Part shown: positions 49,027 through 49,234 of the stretch, in pieces
Layout: each line of letters starts with the position of its first letter
Position numbering within the stretch: position 1 is the stretch's first letter
Source of the DNA: Escherichia coli
GTDB taxonomy: Bacteria; Pseudomonadota; Gammaproteobacteria; Enterobacterales; Enterobacteriaceae
NCBI RefSeq assembly: GCF_003334305.1
Contig: NZ_QOWS01000007.1
Strand: one strand, 5' to 3'
Length of the DNA: 64,000 nt
Notes under the pieces: model-generated
Databases searched by the model: none
Told to the model about the DNA's origin: nothing
Seen by the model: only the letters and a program-made list of their open reading frames with translations
Made by a program: the position numbers and the translations under genes

Positions 49027-49078
49027 TCTCAATGCCGGGTTTAAGCCTGGTATTAAAAGTGCTGGCAAACGCAAAACT

Positions 49079-49177
49079 GCCTGATGCGCTACGCTTATCA
49101 GGCCTACGTGGCTCATGCAATATATTGAATTTGCACGATCTTGTAGGCCGGATAAGGCGTTCACGCCGCATCCGGCA
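49079..49177. repeat. BIME: two inverted REP elements
   Basis: gcctgatgcgctacgcttatcaggcctac (49079-49107) and taggccggataaggcgttcacgccgcatccggca (49144-49177). Confidence 0.8.
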
Positions 49178-49234
49178 TGAATAAAGCGCACTTTGTCGAC
49201 AAGTTAAATGCCGGGTTTAATCCCGACATTATTT

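What the first reader, a model, noticed from the sequence alone, without database searches (positions are those of the whole stretch)
49031..49220. REP pair in the srmB-yfiE spacer flanked by a 14-bp direct repeat
Two canonical REP sequences in inverted orientation (49079-49107 and 49144-49177) are bracketed by identical 14-mers aatgccgggtttaa at 49031-49044 and 49207-49220. A 14-mer repeat can occur by chance at this scale (a handful expected), but its symmetric placement around the REP pair is suggestive of an insertion footprint or of duplicated terminator hairpins for the two convergent genes.
Basis: seen in the sequence. Interest (0 to 1): 0.3.

Follow-up and report, generated by a model that had tools for sequence, protein, structure and literature searches.

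The report
REP-pair insertion that duplicated a terminator
The 14-base repeat is the intact part of a 25-base terminator hairpin that was copied onto both sides of a small mobile REP-pair element (BIME-1) when it inserted after srmB, and the same hairpin-sized footprint flanks many other copies of this element, a clue to how these abundant repeats move.

Summary
AATGCCGGGTTTAA occurs at 49031-49044 and 49207-49220, and the repeat extends to 25 nt (21/25 identical).

Between the copies lies a 151-nt BIME-1: y REP, L linker with an IHF-like site, z1 REP, and conserved outer motifs.

About half of 5,426 complete E. coli genomes carry an allele exactly 176 bp shorter (151+25). It has one perfect hairpin, AATGCCGGG-TTTAAG-CCCGGCATT, followed by a T-run. 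E. albertii has this single hairpin, and Citrobacter has a homologous single one. So the single hairpin is the ancestral srmB terminator, and the window shows an insertion with a hairpin-sized target duplication.

The pattern is general. Filled and empty alleles at yddM-fdnI, metE-ysgA and uspB-pitA show the same thing. Ten of 16 intact BIME-1 sites sampled from metagenomes carry site-specific hairpin direct repeats of 18-27 nt, flush with the element ends.

The duplication is shown. The mechanism is inferred: breaks at the two feet of the target hairpin, with the REP-associated transposase TnpA(REP) as one possible enzyme, and later precise loss through the repeats.

I found no description of this footprint in the searchable literature, but key 1990s papers could not be read.

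The parts
47692..49026 (+). srmB coding sequence (DEAD-box RNA helicase), stop TAA at 49024-49026
   Evidence: ORF list; RefSeq annotation of identical DNA
49031..49055 (+). Direct repeat copy 1 (H1): AATGCCGGGTTTAAGCCtGGtATTA. This is the left copy of the duplicated srmB terminator hairpin. Two C>T changes in the 3' arm leave G-U pairs in the srmB-sense RNA. No T-run follows it.
   Evidence: (D1); fold -13.0 kcal/mol on + strand and -7.1 on - strand
49056..49078 (+). Left outer motif of the BIME-1 (AAAGTGCTGGCAAACGCAAAAC), a diverged copy of the family consensus GAGACTGATGACAAACGCAAAAC
   Evidence: Paralogues align from insert position 5 or 11 onward; consensus taken from 37 site clusters
49079..49107 (+). 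y-type REP (palindromic unit), GCCTGATGCGCTACGCTTATCAGGCCTAC
   Evidence: only copy in the window, inverted pairs I1 and I4
49108..49142 (.). L linker of the BIME-1. It contains an IHF-consensus-like site, ATTCAATATATTG, on the - strand at 49130-49118 (8 of 9 specified positions of WATCAANNNNTTR). It matches Rfam ES036 (RF02751) at 49100-49142 on the - strand.
   Evidence: Sequence read directly; Rfam match 49.9 bits against a gathering score of 37.6; BIME-1 definition in PMC3333891
49143..49177 (+). z1-type REP in inverted orientation, GTAGGCCGGATAAGGCGTTCACGCCGCATCCGGCA
   Evidence: (I2)
49178..49206 (+). Right outer motif of the BIME-1 (TGAATAAAGCGCACTTTGTCGACAAGTTA), a diverged copy of the consensus TGAACAAAGCGCACTTTGTCAACAATCTGA and an imperfect inverted repeat of the left outer motif
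49207..49231 (+). Direct repeat copy 2 (H2): AATGCCGGGTTTAAtCCCGaCATTA. This is the right copy of the duplicated hairpin. It keeps the original T-run (TTTTT, 49232-49236), which overlaps the yfiE stop codon.
   Evidence: fold -9.3 kcal/mol on + strand and -12.8 on - strand
49235..50116 (-). yfiE (LysR-family regulator), convergent with srmB; stop codon at 49235-49237
   Evidence: ORF list; RefSeq annotation of K-12

Best explanation
Shown: the srmB-yfiE spacer of this K-12-like window holds a 151-nt BIME-1 element (49056-49206). The element consists of a left outer motif, a y REP, an L linker with an IHF-like site, a z1 REP and a right outer motif. It sits in what was a 32-bp spacer made of a single intrinsic-terminator hairpin, AATGCCGGG-TTTAAG-CCCGGCATT, plus a T-run. 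The insertion is accompanied by a direct duplication of the whole 25-nt hairpin (49031-49055 and 49207-49231). The reported 14-mer is the part of the two copies that has not yet diverged. The same architecture (a site-specific terminator hairpin of 18-27 nt duplicated flush against both ends of the element) recurs at many independent BIME-1 sites, so it is a property of how this element inserts. Inferred: the target is recognised as a structure, a hairpin in single-stranded DNA or an extruded cruciform. The two strands are broken at opposite feet of the hairpin, the element is joined between the staggered ends, and gap filling copies the hairpin. This is formally like a transposon target-site duplication or the duplication of a CRISPR repeat, but with a stagger set by the length of the hairpin. 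Speculative: the enzyme may be the REP-associated Y1/HUH transposase TnpA(REP); nothing here tests this. Inferred consequences: the left copy loses the T-run and the right copy keeps it, so srmB transcripts would read through the BIME-1 before terminating. The flanking direct repeats around a long quasi-palindrome allow precise loss and tandem amplification, which would explain the presence/absence polymorphism and the two-unit array in Escherichia sp. E1V33.
For: (1) Filled and empty alleles. 2,525 of 5,426 E. coli genomes carry the long allele. Many others (O157:H7, O145, B2-like strains) have an allele exactly 176 bp (151+25) shorter with one perfect hairpin.
(2) Polarity. E. albertii has the single hairpin. 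Four Citrobacter species have a homologous single hairpin abutting yfiE. A GCCGGG...CCCGGC hairpin plus T-run follows srmB in six of the seven printed loci from other genera or Citrobacter species that lack yfiE there. The single copy equals the consensus of the two window copies and is not a chimera of them.
(3) The insert is a dispersed element. Paralogues at entD-fepA and yddM-fdnI align over insert positions 5-147 or 11-147 at 86.5-93% identity.
(4) Generality. Filled/empty pairs with a single versus a duplicated hairpin were verified at yddM-fdnI (27-nt perfect repeat; filled in 2,070 genomes), metE-ysgA and uspB-pitA (filled in 1,940 genomes). In 37 site clusters from a metagenome scan, 11 rows exceed the 99th percentile of mismatched-flank controls. 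Nine distinct sites among them have repeats flush with both element ends (left repeat ends -3 to 0 from the element start, right repeat starts -1 to +1 from its end), plus cluster 19 at +3. That is 10 of 16 sites with both outer motifs intact.
(5) Repeat length (18-27 nt) tracks the hairpin span (18-26 nt) with 0-3 nt excess.
(6) The hairpins stay foldable, with compensatory changes. Strain 100117 has AATTCCGGG/CCCGGAATT, and a metagenome variant has GCCAGG/CCTGGT.
(7) Escherichia sp. E1V33 has hairpin-BIME-hairpin-BIME-hairpin with perfect hairpins.
Against: No transposition event was observed, and the enzyme is not identified. IS200/IS605-type Y1 transposases, the relatives of TnpA(REP), are described as making no target duplication (PMC3333891, PMC2817692).

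Six of 16 intact sites lack the duplication. Three of these and several truncated sites have a hairpin on only one side, so duplication is either not obligatory or is often lost.

The long allele sits on four divergent srmB backgrounds and the short allele on others, including close relatives. The history at this locus therefore involves either an old polymorphism or repeated loss, and I could not tell which.

The correlation between repeat length and hairpin length is partly built in, because the hairpin was folded from the repeat itself.
Confidence: 0.75

Rival explanations
1. The short allele within E. coli is mostly secondary. The BIME-1 inserted once, before E. coli and the divergent Escherichia lineages separated, and has since been lost many times by slippage or recombination between the two 25-nt hairpin copies. 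Each loss regenerates a single hairpin. This is a rival only for the origin of the polymorphism and is compatible with the insertion-with-duplication origin.
For: The long allele, with the same idiosyncratic element ends, occurs on four divergent srmB backgrounds (K-12 type, strain 100117, MOD1-EC7003, E1V33). Strain 100117 (long) and L008 (short) differ by only 10 of 447 nt in srmB. The whole spacer folds as one long quasi-palindrome bracketed by direct repeats. From general knowledge, this is the same geometry that promotes precise excision of Tn10 and Tn5. E1V33 shows that unequal exchange between hairpin copies does happen.
Against: No short allele examined is a chimera of diverged copies. 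L008 has AATGCCGGG, whereas its long relative 100117 has AATTCCGGG in copy 1. E. albertii and Citrobacter show that the single hairpin is also the primitive state, so some short alleles may never have been filled. Homologous recombination could also move either allele between lineages.
Confidence: 0.45
2. Two-step origin. The BIME-1 first inserted beside the hairpin without duplication. The second hairpin copy arose later by symmetrisation of the long palindrome (intrastrand template switching that copies one flank in inverted orientation to the other side), which for a palindromic flank looks like a direct repeat.
For: Three intact and several truncated BIME-1 sites have a hairpin flush on one side only (clusters 0, 9, 16, 21, 24, 33, 36). 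The whole unit is a quasi-palindrome in which the two copies can pair.
Against: An inverted copy would carry the reverse complement of the loop. The loops are in direct register instead: TTTAAG and TTTAAG/T here, CTTTTACA twice at yddM-fdnI, CTAAATG at cluster 14/18, and TAAC/CAAC at cluster 28. No empty-to-one-sided-to-two-sided series was seen at any of the four sites with population data.
Confidence: 0.07
3. The two hairpins are kept as separate terminators or 3'-end stabilisers, one for each convergent gene. Selection for function, rather than the insertion mechanism, explains why two copies are seen.
For: In the window, copy 1 folds well only in the srmB-sense RNA (-13.0 against -7.1 kcal/mol) and copy 2 folds better in the yfiE-sense RNA (-12.8 against -9.3). 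Compensatory stem changes occur in strain 100117, the L110 variant and cluster 28. Loops diverge while stems persist.
Against: Selection can preserve copies but cannot create site-specific duplicates flush with the element ends at more than ten loci. Only three arm substitutions underlie the strand asymmetry here, which has roughly a 1 in 8 probability by chance. Copy 1 has no T-run and copy 2 is weakened in K-12. No 3'-end data were available.
Confidence: 0.3
4. Chance repeat, or two independently evolved terminators that happen to resemble each other.
For: About 14 exact 14-mer pairs are expected somewhere in a 64-kb window.
Against: Only 0.11 such pairs are expected within 300 bp. The similarity extends to 21 of 25 nt. 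The short allele differs by exactly one copy plus the insert. The same pattern occurs at 12 other sites.
Confidence: 0.01

Closest known systems
BIME-1 (also called RIB or RIP elements): y REP, L linker with an IHF site, z1 REP, about 140 bp, single copy, at 3' ends of transcription units, present or absent among E. coli isolates
   Same: The composition, size, linker (Rfam ES036 match; IHF-like site), position between convergent 3' ends and presence/absence polymorphism all match.
   Different: Nothing about the element itself differs. The accessible descriptions (PMC3333891, PMC2817692, PMC1187871) do not mention a flanking duplication of the target terminator hairpin, and they state that the mechanism of spread is unknown.
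REPINs mobilised by RAYT / TnpA(REP) (Y1 HUH transposases related to IS200/IS605)
   Same: Two inverted REPs form a long hairpin, a non-autonomous element present in many copies. The enzyme recognises hairpins in single-stranded DNA and cuts beside them (PMC3333891, PMC3116915).
   Different: The IS200/IS605 family is described as making no target duplication, and none is reported for REPINs in the papers read. Here a duplication of 18-27 nt equal to the target hairpin is seen. No RAYT gene lies in this window, and its involvement is untested.
Bacterial MITEs (terminal inverted repeats plus a short target-site duplication)
   Same: Imperfect terminal inverted repeats (GAGACTGATGAC ... GTCAACAATCTG), flanking direct repeats, and filled and empty sites.
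   Different: From general knowledge, MITE duplications are short, of fixed length, and set by the transposase. Here the length varies from 18 to 27 nt with the size of the target hairpin.
CRISPR spacer integration by Cas1-Cas2, which duplicates a roughly 28-bp partly palindromic repeat (with IHF in type I-E)
   Same: The outcome is formally identical: a palindromic unit ends up directly repeated on both sides of the inserted DNA. This is explained by attacks on opposite strands at the two borders of the repeat (general knowledge).
   Different: This is an analogy of mechanism only. The insert is a 151-nt repeat element, not a 33-nt spacer. The targets are terminators all over the genome. No link to cas genes was tested.
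Precise excision of Tn10 and Tn5 (slippage between short direct repeats that flank long inverted repeats)
   Same: Direct repeats bracket a long quasi-palindrome, alleles are restored exactly to the empty state, and a tandem expansion exists in E1V33.
   Different: The repeats are 25 nt rather than 9 nt and are themselves palindromic. No excision frequency was measured.

Membership tests
BIME-1 (RIB/RIP) | One y and one z1 palindromic unit in inverted orientation | tested here: met
   The y REP is at 49079-49107 and the z1-like REP at 49143-49177, with complementary arms. The z1 versus z2 assignment rests on 86.5-93% identity to other single-copy long-linker elements, not on a curated consensus.
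BIME-1 (RIB/RIP) | Long, conserved L linker carrying an IHF binding consensus | tested here: met
   The linker is 35 nt (49108-49142). ATTCAATATATTG on the - strand matches 8 of 9 specified positions of WATCAANNNNTTR. The linker core TGCAATNTATTGNATT is shared by 105 usable matches in 37 site clusters. Rfam ES036 match at 49.9 bits. IHF binding itself was not tested.
BIME-1 (RIB/RIP) | Occurs as a single unit, unlike the tandem BIME-2 arrays | tested here: met
   There is one unit in the window. Escherichia sp. E1V33 has two tandem units separated by the hairpin.
BIME-1 (RIB/RIP) | [quoted passage not shown] | tested here: met
   It lies between the convergent genes srmB and yfiE. It is present in 2,525 of 5,426 genomes as an intact long allele, and absent or IS-interrupted in the rest.
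Transposable element that makes a target-site duplication (MITE-like) | Flanking direct repeat that is present once at empty sites | tested here: met
   Four loci show filled and empty alleles: srmB-yfiE, yddM-fdnI, metE-ysgA and uspB-pitA.
Transposable element that makes a target-site duplication (MITE-like) | Duplication of fixed length characteristic of the transposase | tested here: not met
   Lengths range from 18 to 27 nt and follow the length of the target hairpin.
Transposable element that makes a target-site duplication (MITE-like) | Terminal inverted repeats | tested here: met
   The consensus ends GAGACTGATGAC and CAGATTGTTGAC (reverse complement of the right end) match at 9 of 12 positions (read from the sequences printed). 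The window copy has diverged at both ends.
Transposable element that makes a target-site duplication (MITE-like) | A cognate transposase that mobilises it | not testable with these tools
TnpA(REP) is a candidate from the literature only (PMC3333891).
REPIN/RAYT system | Insertion without target duplication, as in IS200/IS605 | tested here: not met
   A hairpin-length duplication is present at 13 sites. This lowers the claim that it moves exactly as IS200/IS605 does, not the claim that a hairpin-recognising enzyme is involved.
Intrinsic (Rho-independent) terminator (for the duplicated unit) | G+C-rich stem-loop followed by a T-run at the 3' end of a gene | tested here: met
   The single-copy allele folds at -17.2 kcal/mol and is followed by ATTATTTTTAT. 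A comparable hairpin plus T-run follows srmB in most of the other Enterobacteriaceae loci printed. The simple scan of the window called neither copy, because copy 1 lacks the T-run and copy 2 has a mismatch. Termination itself was not tested.

The most novel reading that the evidence does not exclude
BIME-1 elements, and perhaps enterobacterial REP doublets in general, insert specifically at terminator hairpins by breaks at the two feet of the hairpin, so the whole hairpin is duplicated. This would be the first sequence footprint of REP/BIME transposition. It would explain three things at once: why these elements sit at 3' ends of genes, why they are tolerated (a hairpin remains on each side), and why they excise precisely. 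It would also give a direct assay: offer a terminator hairpin as a target to TnpA(REP) with or without IHF, and look for hairpin-flanked insertions.
Probability: 0.4. Interest if true: 0.75.

Novelty: new variant of a known kind. Interest (0 to 1): 0.55.

Why it matters
REP and BIME sequences are the most abundant repeats in E. coli and have been known for about 40 years. How they spread is still open: Ton-Hoang et al. [quoted passage not shown]

A target duplication that equals a whole terminator hairpin says three things.
- **Where the element lands:** at intrinsic terminators.
- **What is recognised:** a structure, not a sequence.
- **What the break geometry is:** opposite feet of the hairpin.

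It also accounts for the known presence/absence polymorphism of BIME-1 and predicts strain-specific 3' UTRs. For example, srmB transcripts would carry the BIME-1 in K-12 but not in O157:H7.

For the window itself the result is more modest. The spacer is an ordinary, already annotated REP locus whose flanking repeat is now explained.

Tried and rejected
- **Terminator scan.** The simple promoter/terminator scan of 48600-49700 found no site in the spacer. The criteria are too strict for the decayed copies, so folding was used instead.
- **Older papers not held.** Bachellier 1997 (Genetics), Boccard & Prentki 1993 (PMC413762) and Gilson 1991 (PMC333889) could not be read. Seven full-text searches and ten papers opened gave no mention of a hairpin-sized duplication. 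Absence from this library is not proof of novelty.
- **glpD-yzgL.** This site has a hairpin on one side only. No clean empty allele exists because the right flank is a variable region, so one-sided sites remain unexplained.
- **Mis-registered table.** The yfiE-side mismatch table is mis-registered for L008-L011 and was ignored. Only the srmB tables were used.
- **Palindrome symmetrisation.** Rejected because the loops are in direct register.
- **RAYT cutting at CT.** I considered whether cutting at CT dinucleotides at the element ends (..GACTGA.. and ..ATCTGA) defines the junctions. The empty sites have no CTGA, and the window copy lacks CT at both ends, so nothing could be concluded.
- **Other spaced repeats.** The 12- and 13-mer repeats spaced 247-248 bp at 5730/5978 and 11211/11458 are chance matches; surrounding identity is about 26-28%.

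Full report
**1. The observation**

The window is K-12-like E. coli. srmB (+) ends at 49026 and yfiE (-) ends at 49235, leaving a 208-bp spacer.
- The 14-mer AATGCCGGGTTTAA is at 49031-49044 and 49207-49220 and nowhere else in the window.
- The two REPs are at 49079-49107 (y type) and 49143-49177 (z1 type), in inverted orientation.
- The repeat is really 25 nt with 21 matches: AATGCCGGGTTTAAGCCTGGTATTA and AATGCCGGGTTTAATCCCGACATTA, spaced 176 bp start to start.
- Exact 14-mer pairs are common somewhere in 64 kb (about 14 expected). Pairs within 300 bp are not: 0.11 expected, and 9% of simulations had any.

**2. What the comparison with other genomes shows**

A 501-bp query across the spacer found two main alleles in 5,426 complete E. 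coli genomes.
- 2,525 genomes have the long allele in one piece.
- A similar number have a match that spans 176 bp less. In the evenly spaced listing these include O157:H7, O145, MS 115-1 and B2-like strains.
- In the evenly spaced listing, five of 60 rows matched only one side of the query. The two I fetched are long alleles interrupted by an insertion sequence.

Alignment shows that the short allele has a 32-bp spacer consisting of one perfect palindrome, AATGCCGGG-TTTAAG-CCCGGCATT, followed by ATTTTTAT. This is a textbook intrinsic terminator for srmB. It folds at -17.2 kcal/mol, and -16.3 on the other strand.

176 equals 151 plus 25, so the long allele is the short allele plus a 151-nt insert plus a second copy of the hairpin. 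Each window copy differs from the single copy at two positions. The single copy is the consensus of the two, not a crossover product of them.

**3. Polarity**

A protein-guided scan of species-representative genomes gave the following.
- E. albertii has the single hairpin.
- Citrobacter werkmanii, C. youngae, C. portucalensis and Citrobacter sp. Cu233 have a homologous single hairpin (ATGCCGGGC...GCCCGGCAT plus T-run) directly abutting yfiE.
- Six of the seven printed loci from other genera or Citrobacter species, where grcA (or, in C. sedlakii, an unidentified sequence) rather than yfiE follows srmB, have a GCCGGG...CCCGGC (or near-variant) hairpin plus T-run there. Atlantibacter has an unrelated one.

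The single hairpin is therefore the ancestral srmB terminator, and the long allele is derived.

**4. What the insert is**

The 151-nt insert alone finds paralogues in every E. coli genome. In genomes that lack it at srmB-yfiE, the best matches are at entD-fepA and yddM-fdnI. They cover insert positions 5-147 or 11-147 at 86.5-93% identity.

Its parts are:
- a left outer motif (family consensus GAGACTGATGACAAACGCAAAAC);
- the y REP;
- a 35-nt linker with an IHF-like site (ATTCAATATATTG on the - strand), which matches Rfam ES036 above its gathering score;
- the z1 REP;
- a right outer motif (consensus TGAACAAAGCGCACTTTGTCAACAATCTGA).

This is the published definition of BIME-1: z1 plus y, a long conserved L linker that often carries an IHF site, and single copy (PMC3333891). 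BIME-1 is about 140 bp and present or absent among isolates (PMC1187871). The two outer motifs are imperfect inverted repeats of each other. The whole spacer folds as one long quasi-palindrome (-41.6 kcal/mol, z -4.1), in which even the two hairpin copies can pair with each other.

**5. The pattern is general**

The yddM-fdnI paralogue in O157 is flanked by a perfect 27-nt direct repeat, AAAATGGCGCCTTTTACAGCGCCATTT, which is again a terminator hairpin.

I scanned metagenome contigs for the BIME-1 core and obtained 105 usable matches in 37 site clusters. I compared the 45 nt outside each end of the element and used mismatched left and right flanks from different sites as the control.
- Eleven rows exceed the 99th percentile of the control: ten BIME-1 sites (one site contributes two rows) plus a tandem array, cluster 26.
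- In nine sites the left repeat ends at -3 to 0 from the element start (cluster 19 at +3), and in all ten the right repeat starts at -1 to +1 from its end.
- Of 16 distinct sites with both outer motifs intact, 10 have this feature. Cluster 19, which has degenerate outer motifs, also shows it, and cluster 31 shows it weakly (score 18, below the control threshold).
- The repeats are different at every site. They are G+C-rich stem-loops 18-27 nt long, exceeding the hairpin span by only 0-3 nt (with the caveat that the hairpin was folded from the repeat itself).
- Loops often differ between the two copies while stems are kept, sometimes through compensatory changes (GGTGGT/ACCACC against GGTGGC/GCCACC in cluster 28).

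Population data confirm the footprint at three more loci.

| Locus | Empty allele | Filled allele |
|---|---|---|
| yddM-fdnI | 178 bp shorter, one hairpin | two hairpin copies; 2,070 genomes |
| metE-ysgA | among hits at this locus in the 30 sampled rows, only empties with one hairpin; no E. coli genome has the filled allele | one metagenome contig |
| uspB-pitA | 173 bp shorter, one hairpin | 1,940 genomes, including K-12 derivatives |

**6. Mechanism**

*Shown.* A site-specific hairpin is present once at empty sites and twice, flush with the element, at filled sites. The duplicate is direct, because the loops are in the same register. This excludes symmetrisation of the large palindrome.

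*Inferred.* Duplication length follows hairpin length rather than being constant, so the break points appear to be set by the structure. The simplest geometry is one break on each strand at opposite feet of the hairpin (or extruded cruciform), joining of the element, and fill-in. This is the logic of a transposon target duplication and of CRISPR repeat duplication, with the stagger equal to the hairpin.

*Speculative.* One candidate enzyme is TnpA(REP), which recognises REP hairpins in single-stranded DNA and cuts beside them (PMC3333891). Its IS200/IS605 relatives make no duplication, so this would be a new mode. Single-strand events at only one foot could give the one-sided sites seen in clusters 9, 21, 36 and others.

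**7. After the insertion**

Only the hairpin is duplicated, not the T-run.
- Copy 1 (49031-49055) is followed by AAAAGTG. Copy 2 (49207-49231) keeps TTTTT. srmB transcription should therefore cross the BIME-1 before reaching a terminator.
- In the window, copy 1 folds well only in the srmB sense (-13.0 against -7.1 kcal/mol). Copy 2 folds better in the yfiE sense (-12.8 against -9.3). This rests on three transitions, so it is suggestive only.
- Other lineages keep both hairpins perfect, with a compensated double change in strain 100117 (AATTCCGGG/CCCGGAATT). MOD1-EC7003 has the uncompensated CCCGGAATT arm, a possible intermediate. A metagenome variant has GCCAGG/CCTGGT.
- Escherichia sp. E1V33 carries hairpin-BIME-hairpin-BIME-hairpin. 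This shows unequal exchange between the copies.
- The long allele sits on four divergent srmB backgrounds, and close relatives differ in state. Either the polymorphism is old or precise loss through the 25-nt repeats recurs. I could not decide between these.

**8. Comparison with what is known**

The element is a known BIME-1 at a known REP locus. Its presence/absence polymorphism is known. The REP-targeting insertion sequences found in it in some strains (IS621, IS1397) are known.

What I could not find in any accessible paper is the hairpin-length duplication of the target terminator. The accessible papers state that the mechanism of BIME spread is unknown. The key papers of the 1990s are not in the library, so prior description cannot be excluded.

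**9. Verdict**

The locus itself is ordinary.

The general footprint it exposes is the interesting part and makes the mode of BIME-1 insertion testable.
- **Interest:** 0.55.
- **Confidence that this is a BIME-1 insertion with duplication of the 25-nt terminator hairpin:** about 0.9.
- **Confidence in the proposed break geometry and enzyme:** about 0.4.
- **Overall confidence in the combined explanation:** 0.75.

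Noticed in passing
window 35069-35087 and 35317-35335: There is an exact 19-nt direct repeat, TTGAGGGTGCATGCTGCAC, in the gene-poor stretch next to the type I toxin gene shoB (CDS at window 34913-34993, - strand). If the two copies lie in oppositely transcribed RNAs, they would be complementary. This fits my recollection of the known 19-nt pairing between the shoB leader and the OhsC antitoxin sRNA. The RefSeq record lists shoB but no sRNA here.
   Followed up: partly
L006 (strain CFSAN027350) and L007 (strain S1-ESP-03-A), equivalent to window ~49104 and ~49162: In some strains the srmB-yfiE BIME-1 is interrupted by IS621 (IS110 family, breakpoint at the GGCCTAC end of the y REP) or by IS1397 (IS3 family, breakpoint in the z1 REP). 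Five of the 60 evenly spaced rows matched only one side of the query; the two fetched are these. REP/BIME elements are known targets of IS1397 and of IS110-family elements.
   Followed up: partly
L216 (E. coli isolate 68), yddM-fdnI spacer: An IS200/IS605-family tnpA element sits immediately upstream of the same terminator hairpin that is duplicated around the BIME-1 in other strains. A Y1-transposase element has therefore also landed at the foot of this hairpin.
   Followed up: no
L011 (Escherichia sp. E1V33), 3833-4230: There are two tandem 176-bp units (hairpin + BIME-1) ending with a third hairpin, and all hairpins are perfect. This could be a route from single BIME-1 elements to arrays.
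   Followed up: partly
L091 (strain BS-04), about 450-560: A run of roughly 100 A residues lies inside the y REP of this spacer. It is probably an assembly or sequencing artefact, not biology.
   Followed up: no
window 49100-49142 (- strand): The BIME-1 L linker matches the Rfam sRNA family ES036/CssrF (RF02751) above its gathering score. That family therefore probably corresponds to the BIME-1 linker repeated around the genome.
   Followed up: no
window 8687-8719: A solitary z-like REP (ATGCCGGATGCGGCGTGAACGCCTTATCCGGCAT) lacks the GTAG/CTAC tail and has no obvious flanking direct repeat.
   Followed up: no
L123 (cluster 19) and L148 (clusters 26/27): L123 has a 37-nt flanking repeat that includes the hairpin, the T-run and an A-motif-like CCAAAAGCAA, possibly a decayed tandem unit. 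L148 has two tandem BIME-1-like units with different outer sequences. Neither fits the simple pattern.
   Followed up: no
clusters 0, 2, 4, 6, 9, 16, 21, 24, 33, 35, 36: Many BIME-1 copies have a strong G+C-rich hairpin at or within about 8 nt of only one end, the left in some and the right in others. It is unresolved whether these are insertions without duplication or sites where one copy was lost.
   Followed up: partly
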